From Candidatus Versatilivoraceae bacterium (lineage in GTDB: Bacteria > Acidobacteriota > Terriglobia > Versatilivoradales > Versatilivoraceae), in the NCBI GenBank assembly GCA_965197895.1, contig OZ240232.1:714318-778317 (forward strand): a DNA stretch of 64,000 nt. The letters are read 5' to 3'. A model generated the notes under the pieces. The model ran no database searches. It saw nothing but the letters and a program-made list of their open reading frames with translations, and was not told where the DNA came from. This document shows positions 31,298-36,434 of the stretch, piece after piece (the first letter of the stretch is position 1; every line of letters begins with the position of its first letter). Made by a program: the position numbers and the translations under genes.

Positions 31298-32791
31298 TTA
31301 GCGCGAGTTCAACGGCGGCCGTCCCCAGAGGGTGAGCTCCGTCCTCACCAAGGGGCCGCTCAGGAAGAAGCTGGCCATGTAACCCAAGAGGAAGCTGACT
31401 CCAAACGAGATGGGGAAATAATGAATAAAATGGACGTCGGTCCAATTTTGCAGCCAAAGCGAGATGCTTAATGAAGGCAGCGTCCCCACAATCCAGCCCC
31501 GAAAATGGGCTCGCCTGGTCAACATTCCCAGTAGGAAGAGCGACAATACGGGACCACCAAAGAGACTCAGAAAGGCCGAGGCCGCTTTGAGGATCTCACC
31601 GATCCGGACCGTATAACAGGCGGCGCCAATGGCGAAGAGGCCCAAGACCAGGGTCAGCGTCCGCGCCAGCTTGACATCCGACTGGCTCGAGACCGGCTTG
31701 CGCCGAAAGGGCTTAACGAAATCGTTCATAATAACCGACGAGAGAGAGTTGATCCCCGAATCCAGGCTCGACATGGCCGCCGCCAGGATGGCCGTGATCA
31801 GCAATCCGGACACGCCGTCGGGAAGGGCGTGGATCACGTAGTAGGCAAGGACCTGGTCTCCCGTCACCCCCGAAGCCAGCCGGTCCGGGAAGGCCTGAAA
31901 GTAGGCGAACAGGCCCAATCCCACAAACAGAAGCAGGTTGATCAGGAAGAGATCGATCAGGGAATTCAGGATGGCCGCCTTGGCCATGCCGCGCGCATCC
32001 CGAACCGACAAGAGTCGCTGGACCGAGACCTGATCGGTGCCGTAGTCCTGCATTAACTGAAACAGGTAAGAGAGCGCCGCCCCCAGTGCGGTCATCTCAA
32101 ACCAGTCCAGCCTCCATTGCCAAACGTCCAGGCGTTGGGTTTCGCCGGCTAAGGCCATGATTTGGGCGGCGCCTCCCGGAACGCCTTCGATCAAAGCAAT
32201 GGCCATCCATACCGCGCCACCCGCCAGCAGGGTAAACTGGAGAACGTCCGTCCAGATCACCGCCGACAAGCCTCCCAAGGTGGCATAAGCCGTCGCGATA
32301 ATCCCCATCAATAGAATTGCTGGATAGAGGCCGATGCCGGTCATGACCGAGAGGGCCAAGGAAGGGGAATAGATGACTACGCCCAACCACCCCATTCGAG
32401 CCAGGCAGAACAATCCCGCCACGCACAGCCGTGCCGCTCTTCCGTACCGTTGATCGATGTATTCGTAGGCTGTGGTGACCCGTAACTGGCGGTAGAAGGG
32501 ATAGAATATGAGGATCAGCAGGGGCGCCACCACCGGGCTCACCAGGCCGATCACCATCATCGAGATGTTCTCTCGAAAGGCGATGCCGGGGACTCCCAGA
32601 AAGGAAGAAGCACTGGTGAGCGAGGCGAACATGCTGACCCCGACCGCGAGCCAGGGCATGCGGCGGCCCCCCAGGAAAAAATCCTCGGTGCTCCGTTGCT
32701 TTCCTGCCAGCCTCAGACCGATCCAGACCAGGACTGACAGGTAAATCACCAGAACAAACAGGTTCAGGCGACTGAATCCAACTGGGTCCAT
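31298..32791 (-). CDS. sodium:solute symporter (SSS) family transporter
   Basis: 497 aa, ~13 TM helices. SSS N-terminal region (FFLGGRRMPWLAVGVSMFASLTSASSFLGVPG) and signature around AYEYIDQRYG. Confidence 0.8.
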   Translation of the reverse strand: MDPVGFSRLNLFVLVIYLSVLVWIGLRLAGKQRSTEDFFLGGRRMPWLAVGVSMFASLTSASSFLGVPGIAFRENISMMVIGLVSPVVAPLLILIFYPFYRQLRVTTAYEYIDQRYGRAARLCVAGLFCLARMGWLGVVIYSPSLALSVMTGIGLYPAILLMGIIATAYATLGGLSAVIWTDVLQFTLLAGGAVWMAIALIEGVPGGAAQIMALAGETQRLDVWQWRLDWFEMTALGAALSYLFQLMQDYGTDQVSVQRLLSVRDARGMAKAAILNSLIDLFLINLLLFVGLGLFAYFQAFPDRLASGVTGDQVLAYYVIHALPDGVSGLLITAILAAAMSSLDSGINSLSSVIMNDFVKPFRRKPVSSQSDVKLARTLTLVLGLFAIGAACYTVRIGEILKAASAFLSLFGGPVLSLFLLGMLTRRAHFRGWIVGTLPSLSISLWLQNWTDVHFIHYFPISFGVSFLLGYMASFFLSGPLVRTELTLWGRPPLNSR

Positions 32792-33651
32792 TTCCTGTCT
32801 CTGACGGCTTTATTTGAGATCTGGAGAGGCGGAGGAAGAGCCAGGGAACCGGCTGGCCATGAGGGGCTGAGACTTGCCGGCATCCGCTCCTCCAATATGA
32901 TGGCTGGCGCGGTTGCTAGCATACCATGCCTGAGCCTGGGAAGCGGTGGAGCCGCGCGGTTAAGGGAATCCGATTCCGGGCGATTGCGGCCCGACCTTGG
33001 TAAGATGTTCCGGGTCGTCGCTATGGTGCAGCCCTCATTGGGGCGCTGACCTTCATGACCTCCCGCAATCCCTGGACCTGGAGCGGGGTTACCGAGGTTT
33101 ACGCCCTCAACCTGGTGTTGCTGACCTGGCCGGTTGCGGTCTGCCGGCCGCGTTGCTCCTGGGACTGGGAATCCTGATCTCCTTGGGCAAGCGGCAACCG
33201 TGGCCGAATCGCGCCTTGGTTATCTGTGGTCCAGGCTGAAACTGGGGGCGGATGGGTGTTCGGTGCTGCCCCGAGTGGGTCGATTCGACCCTTATCGCAA
33301 AGTTTGGATGAACTACCAGAGGGCCGTCGAAGCCCATTGGTTCGCGGTCATGCAAGTGATTGAATCTGCCGGCGCTTGCCAGCCCTGTGGGGTTTCTGGA
33401 TTCCTGCATTTGCAGGTTCGTTTAAATGCGTTTAAAAATCGTCCTACTACTTCAGGTCGGGAGAAACAATCAGACAAACATGGTTGGTGACACAGGTGCG
33501 AACAAATCGATTGGCCAACTTGAAGTGATATTCGATTCAACGTTCTGATACCACCGGGCCCGACGACGGCGGCAGCTTGGATGAGTCGTTGGGTTTGTTC
33601 TTCATCAAAGGGATTGGGGCCGCAACCATCAGTGAATAGCCGGTCGGGTTT

Positions 33652-34194
33652 TTATTCCAGGGTGGTGGCACGGACATTCTTGTCCGTGCTCCTGTTTGGG
33701 TCCCAGTCAGGAATGCTTGGGCTACTGCCACATTTGGGGATGGCTGCGTGATAAATCCAGTAGTGGCTGGGGTGAAGGTTGGCTTTAGACGGGTTCTCGG
33801 CGATATAGCGTTGAAAGCGCAAGTATTGGGATTCGTTGCGAACGATGTGATCGAAGGATTCCTCCAGCCGGAAGGTCCCGGAAGACCCCAGGATTTTGTT
33901 GGTTGCGCGGGCACTTGCTCCTTTGATGCCCTTCAGGAGGTCGGAGAGCCGACGGGTGCCCAGGGGTTCAATGAGCAGGTGAACATGGGGCGGCATGACC
34001 ACGGCGCCGTGAAGGCGATGCCGGTCGCTGTCGAAGCGCAGCAGGGCTTCGACGACTCTCTGGCGAATTTCTGGACGCGCTAGGGCACGCGAGCCGCTTC
34101 CGGCATCGAGCCATTGTTCCAGTCGGTCACCGAACCGCTTGTTGTAAATCTTCCATTGTGCTTGGGACCAGGGTTTGGGATTGCGCGTCTGCCT
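33652..34194 (-). pseudogene. REP-associated tyrosine transposase (RAYT / IS200-like TnpA_REP), N-terminally truncated remnant
   Basis: Minus-strand translation: ...RLHGAVVMPPHVHLLIEPLGTRRLSDLLKGIKGASARATNKILG...FDHIVRNESQYLRFQRYIAENPSKANL (HUH motif HVHLL; catalytic Y in YIAENP). Reading upstream hits a TAG at 34195-34197 with no Met and no N-terminal beta-strand motif. Confidence 0.6.
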
Positions 34195-34262
34195 CTATGG
34201 GTGTGTTTTCCTCCACTGTGAATTTGTAATGGTTGAGGAGAGGGAATAAGCCGCGCGATTGT

Positions 34263-34385
34263 TCAAGAAACCGTCGAAGTCGACGAAACCGGCCCTGTAT
34301 AGCTGTCTTTGGGAACCCAGCTATTCCGTACTTGATCGGCACGGAAAACATCATCCCAATCAAAACTGAAAAATACTTTCCTCAT
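34263..34385 (-). pseudogene. TIR-like (DUF1863/MTH538-type) domain gene remnant; only ~26 N-terminal residues in frame
   Basis: MRKVFFSFDWDDVFRADQVRNSWVPKD matches the family N-terminus (KRVFFSFHYxDVxRxNxVRNxW), then stops after 40 aa. A +1 frame continues ...YRAGFVDFDGFLNN (compare reAAGFFDASIWEE), suggesting a frameshift and downstream truncation by the RAYT. Confidence 0.5.
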
Positions 34386-34846
34386 AATGCCTTCATTCCG
34401 ATTATTACGAACACAATAAGGGCGAAGGTAACCTCGACCGAGTAGAAAATCATAAGAGTGACGGAAAAAATGGCGGCCAGCCAACTGCATTTGGGCTTAT
34501 GCCGGTGCTTCATAAGATCCATCTTGAAATCGGTATCGGATTGAATCCTGACATCATCATAAACTTGTCGAAACAACCGTTCCTGCCAAAGGAAGTATCC
34601 GTCCAGAATCCAGAATCCCAGGATGGGAAGAACAAGCGCCGGGATGATGTAGGGGCTTTGTAGATCATGTCTGGCGATTAAAACCATCGCGGCCACAATG
34701 AGGGTCATGCTCCAACTCTTGAGCAGGAAGGCGTTGTTTCCCAAACGGTTGATAATGGCTTGGGTCAGCTCCAAATGCTTGATGACTTTGTCTGCGCCGG
34801 TCATAAAATTGTTCTCCCAAGCGAGGTAGATTTCATATTGCACCAC
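34382..34846 (-). CDS. small multi-pass membrane protein (SLATT-like?), translationally coupled (ATGA) to the TIR-like remnant
   Basis: 154 aa, 3 predicted TM helices (MTLIVAAMVLIA, IIPALVLPILGFWILDGYFLW, LAAIFSVTLMIFYSVEVTFALIVFVIIG). Stop TGA overlaps ATG of the downstream TIR-like ORF. Region is visibly A+T-rich. Confidence 0.55.
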   Translation of the reverse strand: MVQYEIYLAWENNFMTGADKVIKHLELTQAIINRLGNNAFLLKSWSMTLIVAAMVLIARHDLQSPYIIPALVLPILGFWILDGYFLWQERLFRQVYDDVRIQSDTDFKMDLMKHRHKPKCSWLAAIFSVTLMIFYSVEVTFALIVFVIIGMKAL

Positions 34847-34952
34847 AACTTGTAATTTGGCTACCTGCCTTCAGCAATAAGGTGTAATCGCAAAATCAGT
34901 TCCCCTCCCAGGATGTCCGTTTGCCCTCTTGCTTACGAACTGTCCATTCCAA

Positions 34953-34993
34953 CCCCGGGGCGTGGGATTGGTTAAGCCTAGGCCCCGGGGCGT
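34953..34993. repeat. pair of CCCCGGGGCGT palindromic units (REP-like) 30 bp apart
   Basis: aaCCCCGGGGCGTgggattggttaagcctaggCCCCGGGGCGTccc, next to the RAYT remnant; a related aaccccggggtcagg occurs at ~56533. Confidence 0.35.
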
Positions 34994-35159
34994 CCCTGGG
35001 AGTCTGCGCCGTGGAACACTGCCGGGGCCTTCCGGTGGACTATGATCCCTATTATTGGCGAGAAATCCGCTGGGACAAGAACGTTCCACCCTATTCTCAG
35101 CAAAGTTTCGACCTTATTATGGAAGACTGTCCCTGAAAAATTTTCTGCGGCGCTGACTC

Positions 35160-36434
35160 TTAGGAGGCACCTGGTTTTTGGTCAGAGCGATCCAGGAAGT
35201 GCCAGACAAACCCGAGCAGAGAGAGTGTGGCGATGGTGATTGGAATGACCCAGACCCCCTGCTCGAGGGTTCCGCTGTGCTCTCCCACAAAGCCGATGAA
35301 GTAGGGCCCCATGGCGGCGCCCAAGTGTCCCAGCGCTTGGGTGAAGCCGAAGGCTTTGGCGGCTGTCCGGCGGAAGCGCAGGGCTGTAAAGGACTGCAAC
35401 GATATGGCGTCTCCACTCATTCCCATACCGGCGATGAAGATCAGGATCAGGCCGAGCTGGTAGCTCCCGCTGAGAATGGTCAGGACGTAGAAGATGGCTC
35501 CCACACCGGCGCTGCAGCCCAGTAGAATTCGCTCGGGGATCCGTCCTCCAAAATAGGTCCAGATCGTCCGTCCCACAATGAAGCCCGTGATGTTGGCAGC
35601 GATAATCGATCCAACTTGGGTCTCGGAGAGAGCCAATCGATCTGCATAAAGCCGACCGAGCCAGACCACCGCGCCCATCTGTCCGATTCCGTGCAGGGTA
35701 AAGGCCAGGCCGATGAGCCACAAGGGCAATGAGCGACAGAACTGCACCATTGCCTGAAACGACTCCAGCCACCGCCCACGCGATTCATCGCGACTTGGCG
35801 CCAGCGTGGAGGTCCCCGCCGGTATCGCGGGCACCGTCGGCAGGGTCAAAAGATATAGACTCATCAAGGCAATGTAGGGAATCCACCAGGGCCAACCCCC
35901 CTGCATCCAGGCACGGTCCAAATAGGCGCCCAGTCCTATCGGAGCCAGAGTGCCGCCAACGGCCATGGTCAAGGCCAAGGCCGCGAAGACTCGTTGGCGG
36001 GCCTCCAGAAAATGGTGGGCCGTCAGGGTTCCATAGACGACGATGAGCCAGGAGGTCCCCACCCCCATCAGGATGGCGCCTACTTGGGCCATGAGCCAGT
36101 TTTGGGCGGCGCCCAACAGTAGACAGCCCAGTCCTCCTAAAGCCAGGCCCCGCTTCACGGATTGGGCCGGGCCTCTACGAGCGGTGACCAACCCGGCTAC
36201 TATATTCCCGGCAAGAGCACCAATGAAGTAGAGCATCTCGACTCTGCCCTGCATTTCAAAGCCGGCCTGAAAGTATTTCTGGAAAACCTTGAAGGTGACC
36301 GGCAAGAGGTTGATGGTCATGCCCACCAGCAGGCTCAAGCCGATCGAAAACCAGAACAGTCTGTTCCGGATGGGGAGTTGTGGCTTTTGGCGGTGAGATG
36401 CAGGAGAGGCCGTGTCCGGCGAGTGCTCGTCCAT
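35160..36434 (-). CDS. MFS transporter
   Basis: 424 aa, 12 TM helices, MFS motif region (GLVTARRGP). Divergently oriented to the aminotransferase cluster. Confidence 0.8.
   Translation of the reverse strand: MDEHSPDTASPASHRQKPQLPIRNRLFWFSIGLSLLVGMTINLLPVTFKVFQKYFQAGFEMQGRVEMLYFIGALAGNIVAGLVTARRGPAQSVKRGLALGGLGCLLLGAAQNWLMAQVGAILMGVGTSWLIVVYGTLTAHHFLEARQRVFAALALTMAVGGTLAPIGLGAYLDRAWMQGGWPWWIPYIALMSLYLLTLPTVPAIPAGTSTLAPSRDESRGRWLESFQAMVQFCRSLPLWLIGLAFTLHGIGQMGAVVWLGRLYADRLALSETQVGSIIAANITGFIVGRTIWTYFGGRIPERILLGCSAGVGAIFYVLTILSGSYQLGLILIFIAGMGMSGDAISLQSFTALRFRRTAAKAFGFTQALGHLGAAMGPYFIGFVGEHSGTLEQGVWVIPITIATLSLLGFVWHFLDRSDQKPGAS

What the first reader, a model, noticed from the sequence alone, without database searches (positions are those of the whole stretch)
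34263..34846. Decayed two-gene conflict module: multi-TM protein translationally coupled to a TIR-like (DUF1863) remnant, next to a truncated RAYT
On the minus strand a 154-aa three-TM protein ends in TGA overlapping the ATG (ATGA) of an ORF that begins MRKVFFSFDWDDVFRADQVRNSW. This is a close match to the N-terminal strand-loop of MTH538/DUF1863 TIR-like domains, but the ORF terminates after 40 aa. An alternative frame continues with ...RAGFVDFDGFLNN, indicating a frameshift, and the remainder is replaced by a RAYT remnant. Small TM (SLATT-type) proteins operonic with TIR/SMODS/SLOG domains are predicted nucleotide-signalling conflict systems. This looks like a pseudogenised example inside a ~1-kb A+T-rich islet between a symporter and an MFS gene.
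Basis: partly seen in the sequence, partly recalled or inferred. Interest (0 to 1): 0.55.

Follow-up and report, generated by a model that had tools for sequence, protein, structure and literature searches.

The report
Eroded type V Thoeris defence operon
This is the wreck of a known two-gene anti-phage system (type V Thoeris): the small membrane "killer" gene is intact, but its TIR sensor gene is cut down to about 35 codons and joined to scraps of a restriction enzyme gene and a transposase-like gene. It is an ordinary decayed defence islet, not a new system.

Summary
On the minus strand, an intact 140-aa three-segment membrane protein (34382-34804) ends in an ATGA overlap with a 40-codon ORF. 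That ORF is the 5' stump of a ThsB-type TIR gene. The proposed frameshift is real: a 1-nt deletion near 34295, after which AGFVD continues.

1. The membrane protein is not SLATT. It belongs to the ThsF / PADLOC PDC-M50A family and is 42% identical (E 1e-30) to the gene next to the experimentally validated Bacillus thuringiensis type V Thoeris ThsB. That system uses 3'cADPR to activate a membrane effector.
2. Only the TIR half has decayed. thsF is intact and typical of its family.
3. TIR homology stops at 34279. It is followed by a 29-codon internal fragment of a type IIG restriction-methylase gene (34276-34190), and only then by the RAYT-like gene. The RAYT-like gene lost its 5' end in a strain-specific 418-bp deletion; sibling strains keep that DNA but carry a nonsense codon.

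Among 82 related loci, which are mostly marine-symbiont-type MAGs, about half have thsF without an adjacent thsB. Those thsF genes still show dN/dS of about 0.1-0.3. This orphan-effector pattern is the one modestly interesting lead.

The parts
34382..34804 (-). thsF-like gene: intact 140-aa three-segment membrane protein (type V Thoeris effector family, equal to PADLOC PDC-M50A), stop codon included
   Evidence: PDC-M50A E 2.2e-36. An identical 140-aa protein is in the databases, with 680 homologues. It is 42% identical, E 1e-30, hhalign probability 99.7, to the gene next to the validated B. thuringiensis ThsB. Three hydrophobic segments. AF2 pLDDT 94.4. One deviation at 38 conserved columns.
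34279..34385 (-). thsB (ThsB-type TIR) 5' stump. Codons 1-30 are in frame (34385-34296). A 1-nt deletion lies at ~34295/34294. AGFVD follows in the shifted frame (34293-34279). The ATG overlaps the thsF stop (ATGA).
   Evidence: PADLOC ThsB 1.6e-8 and PDC-M50B 2.5e-7. tblastn gives 77-80% identity to residues 1-30 of intact partners. The DNA alignment shows the 1-nt deletion. blastn homology to other loci ends at L001 4526, which equals window 34279. Three of 19 invariant residues are changed: W14F, N17D, G27D.
34263..34385 (-). The 40-codon ORF as it reads today (MRKVFF...STVS*). Its last ~10 codons are out-of-frame TIR and type IIG sequence.
34190..34276 (-). Internal fragment of a type IIG restriction-methyltransferase gene (RRFLEQSRGLFPLLNHYKFTVEENTPIE). 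It is 29 codons here and ~86 codons in sibling strains.
   Evidence: The sibling-strain version matches PADLOC REase_MTase_IIG at E 1.7e-13, profile positions 333-413 of 1110. It is 67% identical to type IIG genes upstream of thsF in L025 and L038, with homology starting at ORF residue 30, which equals window 34276.
34189..34193 (.). Junction of a 418-bp deletion relative to sibling strains. The aligned blocks overlap by 5 nt (short microhomology).
   Evidence: blastn of L001-L003 against the window. Sequence.
33652..34191 (-). 3' three quarters of a RAYT-like / IS200-like Y1 (HUH) transposase-like gene. It corresponds to residues 48-226 of the sibling-strain gene; the N-terminal 47 codons are deleted.
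   Evidence: NCBIfam REP_Tyr_transpos 9.6e-10 for the window ORF and 1.2e-12 for the reconstructed protein, both below the cut-off. Pfam Y1_Tnp 24.2 bits against a threshold of 23 on the reconstructed protein. tblastn residues 48-226 match 34191-33655. Siblings carry TAA where the window has CAA at 34158-34156.
34805..35159 (-). Intergenic region upstream of thsF. Homology to other thsF loci begins only ~13 nt before the ATG (~34817). It contains a unique 38-nt hairpin at 34953-34990.
   Evidence: No promoter or terminator signal above shuffled expectation.

Best explanation
The locus is the eroded remainder of a horizontally acquired type V Thoeris anti-phage operon (thsF-thsB).

How the intact system works (from the literature): the ThsB TIR protein senses phage infection and makes 3'cADPR from NAD+. 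The small three-helix membrane protein ThsF, predicted to form a ring-shaped homo-oligomer, binds the signal and disrupts the membrane, which aborts the infection.

What is left here:
- thsF is intact.
- thsB is reduced to about 35 codons. It carries a 1-nt deletion and substitutions at invariant residues, and it is fused to an internal scrap of a type IIG restriction-methylase gene.
- A RAYT-like Y1 transposase-like gene follows. It is itself dead, through a 418-bp deletion in this strain and a nonsense codon in sibling strains.

Without its signal generator, this locus cannot mount Thoeris defence on its own.

Inferred, not shown: the intact thsF is more likely retained than merely not yet decayed, and it could still be triggered by 3'cADPR made by a ThsB encoded elsewhere in the genome.
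For: Identity of the TM gene:
- PADLOC PDC-M50A E 2.2e-36. The same model hits the gene next to the experimentally validated B. thuringiensis DAR 81934 ThsB at 1.8e-48.
- Direct comparison with that gene gives 42% identity, E 1e-30, and hhalign probability 99.7.
- The neighbour of a TIR that Yirmiya et al. list as 'DUF2270 - Type V' (IMG 2642724563 = P0271) is 45% identical, E 3e-33.
- On plasmids, homologues sit next to B. thuringiensis-type ThsB genes.

Identity of the stump:
- PADLOC ThsB and PDC-M50B hits.
- 80% identity to the start of an intact partner that scores PF08937 ThsB_TIR at 6.3e-25.

Operon architecture:
- 31 of 82 related loci have an intact thsB immediately next to thsF, often with the same ATGA overlap, and sometimes two or three tandem thsB genes.

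Decay:
- 1-nt deletion.
- Changes at invariant residues.
- Type IIG fragment.
- 418-bp deletion here versus TAA in siblings.

Foreign origin:
- GC 0.46-0.48 against 0.595 for the window.
- 66-80% nucleotide identity of the thsF-thsB unit across different phyla.

Retention of thsF:
- thsF genes without an adjacent thsB have dN/dS of 0.09-0.3 in close pairs that share the orphan arrangement. The median is 0.138, against 0.153 for paired genes.
- The window copy has only 1 of 38 conserved columns changed.

Mechanism: 3'cADPR signalling, three TM helices and an AF3 heptameric channel come from doi 10.64898/2025.12.03.692087.
Against: - Nothing here shows expression or activity of thsF.
- The lineage-specific contrast between the TIR stump (3 of 19 invariant residues changed) and thsF (2 of 39) is not significant (Fisher p = 0.32). 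For this genome, 'retained' versus 'not yet decayed' therefore stays open.
- No other thsB is present in the 64-kb window, and the rest of the genome could not be searched.
- The loci were ascertained through intact thsF, so the excess of orphan thsF is partly a selection effect.
- The experimental link rests on one preprint. A second type V system in that preprint did not respond to 3'cADPR.
- The preprint's 'DUF2270' label is not reproduced by Pfam hmmscan.
Confidence: 0.85

Rival explanations
1. Pure relic. The whole module, thsF included, is non-functional. thsF is intact only because it is short (420 nt) and the TIR loss is recent. It will decay like its neighbours.
For: - Every other element of the islet is a pseudogene or a fragment.
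- The thsF-versus-stump substitution contrast is not significant (p = 0.32).
- A membrane-disrupting effector with no activator has no obvious benefit.
- No promoter signal above background was found upstream.
Against: - The TIR stump has had time to collect a frameshift and three hits at invariant residues, while thsF has no stop, no indel and one conservative-site change.
- The same allele is fixed in five contigs from different samples.
- Orphan thsF genes in other lineages that share the orphan state by descent (for example L029/L048 and L075/L080) evolve at dN/dS of 0.15-0.19.
Confidence: 0.35
2. One reading: a SLATT-type 2TM effector coupled to a DUF1863 TIR, as in the SLATT/SMODS/SLOG conflict systems (type VII Thoeris-like, cADPR-activated).
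For: - General architecture: a small TM protein operonic with a TIR.
- SLATT-TIR pairs do exist as type VII Thoeris.
- One distant homologue is fused to a SLOG domain (P0218), so the TM domain does associate with nucleotide-sensor domains.
Against: - No SLATT Pfam hit in 32 close homologues at E<=10 or in 39 distant ones at E<=1.
- The protein has three hydrophobic segments rather than a 2TM core.
- It has a strong, specific match to the ThsF / PDC-M50A family, including the validated type V effector.
Confidence: 0.04
3. The small membrane protein is a housekeeping or transport-associated protein, for example an accessory to the neighbouring MFS or SSF transporters. On this view its adjacency to a TIR scrap is incidental.
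For: - It lies between two transporter genes, on the same strand as both.
- There is no Pfam annotation, only sub-threshold DUF3278 and 8xMP hits.
Against: - Homology to other loci covers only thsF-thsB and starts 13 nt before the ATG. The flanks differ in every locus.
- Neighbours elsewhere are defence genes: type I and type IIG RM, AAA/OLD-like ATPases, Cas9, GmrSD, Gabija-like.
- The GC content is foreign.
Confidence: 0.02

Closest known systems
Type V Thoeris (ThsB + ThsF), Yirmiya et al., bioRxiv 2025, doi 10.64898/2025.12.03.692087
   Same: - The TM protein is a clear homologue of the effector gene of the validated B. thuringiensis DAR 81934 system: 42% identity, E 1e-30, the same PADLOC model, similar length (140 vs 141 aa), and three membrane helices, as the preprint reports for ThsF.
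- The partner gene is a ThsB-type TIR.
- Intact relatives form a tight two-gene operon, sometimes with several thsB copies.
   Different: - Here thsB is a ~35-codon frameshifted stump, so the system is incomplete.
- Gene order is thsF then thsB, whereas B. thuringiensis has thsB then thsF.
- The TIR subtype (PF08937, 'FFSFDWDD') differs from the long-N-terminus TIR of the validated system, although the preprint's Table S1 lists PF08937-type TIRs under type V too.
- The preprint's DUF2270 label is not reproduced by hmmscan.
PADLOC-DB v2 candidate system PDC-M50 (PDC-M50A + PDC-M50B)
   Same: The TM protein hits all four PDC-M50A models (best 2.2e-36) and the stump hits PDC-M50B (2.5e-7). Intact partners hit PDC-M50B at 5e-53.
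   Different: PDC-M50 was only a bioinformatic candidate, and no paper in the library mentions it. Searches show it is the same thing as type V Thoeris. The B component here is not intact.
SLATT-TIR systems (type VII Thoeris; Burroughs et al. SLATT conflict systems)
   Same: The logic is the same: a TIR-made nucleotide activates a small oligomerising membrane effector.
   Different: There is no detectable sequence relationship to SLATT. The protein has three rather than two hydrophobic segments. The signal differs: cADPR in type VII, 3'cADPR in type V.
RAYT / IS200-IS605 Y1 (HUH) transposases
   Same: The neighbouring gene has the HVHLLI (HUH) motif. It matches NCBIfam REP_Tyr_transpos and Pfam Y1_Tnp.
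   Different: Scores are below the NCBIfam cut-off (47.9 vs 80 bits). No REP-like repeat arrays flank it. It is a pseudogene in every strain seen.

Membership tests
Type V Thoeris | Effector homologous to ThsF of an experimentally validated system | tested here: met
   42% identity, BLASTP E 1e-30, hhalign probability 99.7, to the 141-aa gene directly downstream of the validated B. thuringiensis DAR 81934 ThsB. Both hit PDC-M50A.
Type V Thoeris | Effector with three membrane-spanning helices | tested here: met
   Kyte-Doolittle segments at 25-44, 51-72 and 107-140. AF2 helices, pLDDT 94.4.
Type V Thoeris | Intact adjacent ThsB TIR gene (the signal generator) | tested here: not met
   Only ~35 codons remain, with a 1-nt deletion. 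Homology ends at 34279. There is no other ThsB-type TIR in the window.
Type V Thoeris | 3'cADPR production on infection and 3'cADPR-triggered effector toxicity / phage defence | not testable with these tools
   Experimental property, known only from the preprint.
Type V Thoeris | Ring-shaped homo-oligomer (AF3 heptamer) with positively charged inter-protomer pockets | not tested
   Only a monomer could be modelled. No solved structural relative was found (Foldseek against PDB, all E>1).
PADLOC PDC-M50 | Both PDC-M50A and PDC-M50B genes present and adjacent | tested here: inconclusive
   A is present in full (2.2e-36). B is present only as a stump (2.5e-7 over 29 residues).
SLATT (SMODS and SLOG-associating 2TM effector) | Match to a SLATT profile (the Pfam SLATT families) | tested here: not met
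   No SLATT family appeared among the hits for 32 close homologues at E<=10 or 39 distant ones at E<=1.
SLATT (SMODS and SLOG-associating 2TM effector) | Two-TM core topology | tested here: not met
   Three hydrophobic segments.
Pfam DUF2270 (PF10028) | Score above the Pfam gathering threshold (25 bits) | tested here: not met
   No hit for the window protein. Only 7 of 39 distant relatives give weak hits, best E 0.005. The validated ThsF itself gives none.
ThsB_TIR (PF08937 / DUF1863) | Match to the PF08937 profile | tested here: inconclusive
   The stump alone, even after frameshift correction, gives no Pfam hit because it is too short. It is 80% identical to the start of an intact partner that scores 87.9 bits on PF08937. 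It also hits PADLOC ThsB at 1.6e-8.
RAYT (REP-associated tyrosine transposase) | NCBIfam NF047646 above its cut-off, HUH motif, and flanking REP arrays | tested here: inconclusive
   47.9 bits against a cut-off of 80. Y1_Tnp 24.2 against 23. The HVHLLI motif is present. No direct repeat families were found in 32700-35300.
Type IIG restriction-methyltransferase | Full-length REase-MTase (~1100 aa) | tested here: not met
   Only profile positions 333-413 of 1110 survive in sibling strains, and 29 codons in the window.

The most novel reading that the evidence does not exclude
Orphan thsF genes, this one included, are kept by selection in marine-symbiont-type lineages (Poribacteria, Binatia, Nitrospirales and others). 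They would act as stand-alone 'receivers' that can be fired in trans by 3'cADPR-type signals made by ThsB proteins encoded elsewhere in the genome, or conceivably by neighbouring cells or the TIR-rich animal host. On this reading, repeated loss of the adjacent TIR is tolerated or even favoured.
Probability: 0.25. Interest if true: 0.55.

Novelty: new member of a known kind. Interest (0 to 1): 0.3.

Why it matters
For annotation, it shows three things:
- The PADLOC candidate PDC-M50 and the newly validated type V Thoeris are the same system.
- ThsF homologues are missed by Pfam.
- Such modules can persist as half-systems.

For biology, the only wider point is the pattern seen in related loci. 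The signal-generating TIR gene is lost again and again, through nonsense codons, frameshifts, truncations and one interrupting insertion. The membrane effector meanwhile stays intact and constrained. If that reflects trans-activation, defence effectors and sensors are more modular than the operon view implies. The locus itself is an ordinary decayed defence islet.

Tried and rejected
- Pfam and NCBIfam on the TM protein and on the stump gave nothing above threshold. The TM protein had only sub-threshold DUF3278 and 8xMP hits; the stump had no hit at all.
- I first assumed the 'RAGFVDFDGFLNN' frame was entirely type IIG-derived and that the frameshift idea was wrong. The DNA alignment and the L025 comparison showed that AGFVD is TIR and the rest is type IIG.
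- The first AF2 run, with only close homologues, gave pLDDT 62 and was unusable. A diverse alignment fixed this, giving pLDDT 94.4.
- Foldseek against PDB gave no match with E<1. The AFDB50 library was not available, so a structural test against DUF2270 or SLATT models could not be made.
- Promoter/terminator scan, Rfam scan and repeat search around the islet found nothing above background.
- A Fisher test of invariant-site changes, stump versus thsF, was not significant (p = 0.32). It is not used as evidence.
- A literature search for 'PDC-M50' and for Thoeris in sponge symbionts returned nothing.

Full report
OBSERVATION

- An ORF at 34382..34846 (154 aa from a GTG) encodes a small hydrophobic protein. 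An identical 140-aa protein in the databases, and 680 homologues of 135-148 aa, place the true start at the ATG at 34804.
- A Kyte-Doolittle scan finds three hydrophobic segments, at residues 25-44, 51-72 and 107-140.
- The TGA stop overlaps the ATG of a 40-codon ORF, MRKVFFSFDWDDVFRADQVRNSWVPKDSYTGPVSSTSTVS* (34263..34385).
- GC content falls to 0.44-0.49 over 34200-34950, against 0.595 for the window.
- The flanking genes are an MFS transporter (35160..36434) and an SSF symporter (31298..32791), both on the same strand.

WHAT THE TWO GENES ARE

Pfam and NCBIfam give nothing above threshold for either product. PADLOC does.

- The membrane protein hits all four PDC-M50A models (best E 2.2e-36).
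- The 40-aa product hits ThsB (1.6e-8) and PDC-M50B (2.5e-7).

A scan of species-representative genomes found 253 loci that encode a relative of the membrane protein. I examined the best 80 of them plus two other contigs.

- In 31 of these 82 loci, an intact TIR gene of 145-196 aa lies directly next to it, nearly always immediately downstream.
- Many of these pairs show the same 4-nt ATGA overlap. Several loci have two or three tandem TIR genes.
- One such partner scores 87.9 bits on Pfam PF08937 ThsB_TIR.
- The window's stump is 77-80% identical to the first 30 residues of these partners.

LINK TO AN EXPERIMENTALLY CHARACTERISED SYSTEM

Yirmiya et al. (bioRxiv, 3 Dec 2025, doi 10.64898/2025.12.03.692087) define type V Thoeris. 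Their main findings are:

- The TIR protein ThsB makes 3'cADPR on infection.
- The effector ThsF has three membrane helices, is modelled by AF3 as a heptameric channel, and is toxic when 3'cADPR is supplied.

I traced two of their entries.

1. The TIR listed in their Table S1 as 'DUF2270 - Type V' (IMG 2642724563) is identical to P0271. Its upstream neighbour is a 137-aa protein that is 45% identical to the window protein (E 3e-33).
2. The validated B. thuringiensis DAR 81934 ThsB is identical to P0391.
   - The next gene on its contig encodes 141 aa.
   - That protein is 42% identical to the window protein (BLASTP E 1e-30; hhalign probability 99.7).
   - It hits the same PADLOC model at 1.8e-48.

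On plasmids of Priestia, Terribacillus and Klebsiella, homologues of the window protein again lie beside B. thuringiensis-type ThsB genes.

The membrane protein is therefore a ThsF homologue, and PADLOC's untested candidate PDC-M50 is the same thing as type V Thoeris.

The SLATT idea is not supported.

- No SLATT model appears for 32 close homologues at E<=10 or for 39 distant ones at E<=1.
- The preprint's 'DUF2270' label is also not reproduced by hmmscan, even for the validated ThsF. Only 7 of 39 distant relatives give weak hits.

The family is large: 4226 representatives at 50% clustering. One member is fused to a SLOG domain, which fits a role as a nucleotide-gated membrane module.

A monomer AF2 model built on a diverse alignment is confident (pLDDT 94.4). 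It has no solved structural relative.

ANATOMY OF THE DECAY

- thsB stump.
- A DNA alignment of the stump with six intact thsB genes shows a 1-nt deletion after ATACAG (~34295/34294).
  - Nucleotide homology to all other thsF-thsB loci begins ~13 nt before the thsF ATG. It ends at window 34279.
  - Within the first 30 codons, the stump differs at three residues that are invariant in 17 intact partners (W14F, N17D, G27D).
- Type IIG fragment.
  - From 34276 the sequence is, in another frame, an internal fragment of a type IIG restriction-methyltransferase gene.
  - In sibling strains this fragment matches PADLOC REase_MTase_IIG at E 1.7e-13 (profile positions 333-413 of 1110). It is 67% identical to type IIG genes that lie upstream of thsF in two other loci.
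- Strain-specific deletion.
  - Four contigs of the same species from other samples are 98-99.9% identical to the window here.
  - The three of them that extend far enough (L001-L003) contain 418 bp that the window lacks (junction 34189-34193, short microhomology).
  - The missing piece holds the rest of the type IIG fragment and the first 47 codons of the RAYT-like gene (RRNLPHW...YWVTFRL).
- RAYT-like gene.
  - The three sibling contigs that reach this codon carry a TAA where the window has CAA (34158-34156).
  - The RAYT-like gene is therefore dead in every strain, by two independent lesions.
  - It has the HUH motif. Its scores are marginal: REP_Tyr_transpos 47.9 bits against a cut-off of 80, and Y1_Tnp 24.2 against 23. 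No REP arrays are nearby.

IS thsF ALSO DECAYING?

It has no stop codon or indel. It deviates at only 1 of 38 columns that are at least 95% conserved, which is typical for the family.

The contrast with the stump (3 of 19 invariant residues changed, against 2 of 39) is not significant (p = 0.32). For this genome alone the question stays open.

Across the family the picture is clearer. Of the 82 loci:

- 31 have an intact adjacent thsB;
- 9 have thsB remnants;
- 40 have no ThsB-type TIR within 400 nt;
- 2 end too close to thsF to judge.

Decayed thsB genes seen across these loci include nonsense codons, truncations and one gene split by ~1.25 kb of intervening DNA (L030).

Pairwise dN/dS of thsF is 0.138 (median) among orphans and 0.153 among paired genes. 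Close orphan pairs that share the same downstream gene, and so inherited the orphan state, give 0.15-0.19. On plasmids, thsF and thsB counts are nearly equal (130 vs 124 records).

Two caveats apply. The loci were found through thsF, so decayed thsF copies are under-sampled. Pairwise Nei-Gojobori estimates are also crude.

EXPLANATION

The islet is a horizontally acquired type V Thoeris operon that has lost its signal generator. It sits in a small graveyard of defence and mobile-element fragments. By itself it cannot signal.

I think it somewhat more likely than not that thsF remains a functional gene able to respond to 3'cADPR from a ThsB encoded elsewhere. One Poribacteria genome carries three thsF copies: one with an intact thsB, one with a nonsense thsB and one orphan (L065, L066, L068). 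This part is inference.

The main rival is a neutral relic. The SLATT and housekeeping readings are effectively excluded.

VERDICT

This is a decayed new member of a known kind, and interest is low to moderate. The recurrent survival of orphan ThsF in lineages typical of marine sponge and coral microbiomes is the only lead worth following. That ecological assignment rests on the MAG names and on my own knowledge; sample metadata were not checked.

Noticed in passing
L038 3414-3899 and L052 3426-3914 (thsB codon 14); window 34346-34344: The same Trp14 codon of thsB is knocked out independently in two phyla: TGG to TAG in an Arenicellales MAG and TGG to TGA in a Poribacteria MAG. It is TTC (Phe) in the window's stump.
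   Followed up: partly
L007-L086 (genome-contig hits): Most of the 80 best thsF loci come from MAGs of Poribacteria, Binatia and Nitrospirales, with others from Latescibacteria, Opitutales, Gammaproteobacteria and more. Amino-acid identity is 52-75% across phyla, and some genomes carry up to three copies (L065, L066, L068). This suggests horizontal spread within one type of community. Habitat metadata were not checked.
   Followed up: partly
L005-L086: About half of the thsF genes have no adjacent ThsB-type TIR yet evolve at dN/dS of ~0.1-0.3. Their downstream neighbours vary: AAA/OLD-like ATPase, HsdR, an aminotransferase, an AtpZ-like protein.
   Followed up: partly
P0218 (378 aa, from the representative library): This protein is a fusion of a SLOG cluster2 domain (Pfam E 1.7e-15) with a C-terminal ThsF-like TM domain. 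A second fusion (P0205, 362 aa) has an unannotated N-terminal part.
   Followed up: no
L096 3273-3698; L087 1001-1414: The validated type V effector and the preprint's 'DUF2270' neighbours do not match Pfam PF10028 by hmmscan. They do match PADLOC PDC-M50A at 1e-46 to 1e-48. The published Pfam label and the candidate-system name therefore refer to the same family under different names.
   Followed up: yes
L001 4616-5033 vs window 34189-34193; L001 ~5068 vs window 34158-34156: Within one species, the RAYT-like gene is inactivated in two ways: a 418-bp deletion in the window strain and a CAA to TAA nonsense change in three other contigs. The ancestor therefore had an intact copy quite recently.
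   Followed up: yes
L025 303-560 and L038 3-179: Type IIG RM sequence 67% identical to the window/L001 fragment lies about 2.5-3 kb upstream of thsF, on the same strand, in two other MAGs. The two defence modules therefore appear to travel in the same islands.
   Followed up: partly
window 34953-34990: A 38-nt G+C-rich hairpin (CCCCGGGGCGTGGGATT..AAGCCTAGGCCCCGGGG) lies in the intergenic region upstream of thsF. It is unique in the window and its function is unknown.
   Followed up: partly
L030 3425-3739 and 4990-5163: A thsB gene is split into two collinear halves by ~1.25 kb of intervening DNA, presumably an insertion element. This is another mode of thsB inactivation.
   Followed up: no
L087-L090 (JGI/ENA metagenome contigs): A thsF-thsB pair sits immediately upstream of a Cas9 gene on several contigs.
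   Followed up: no
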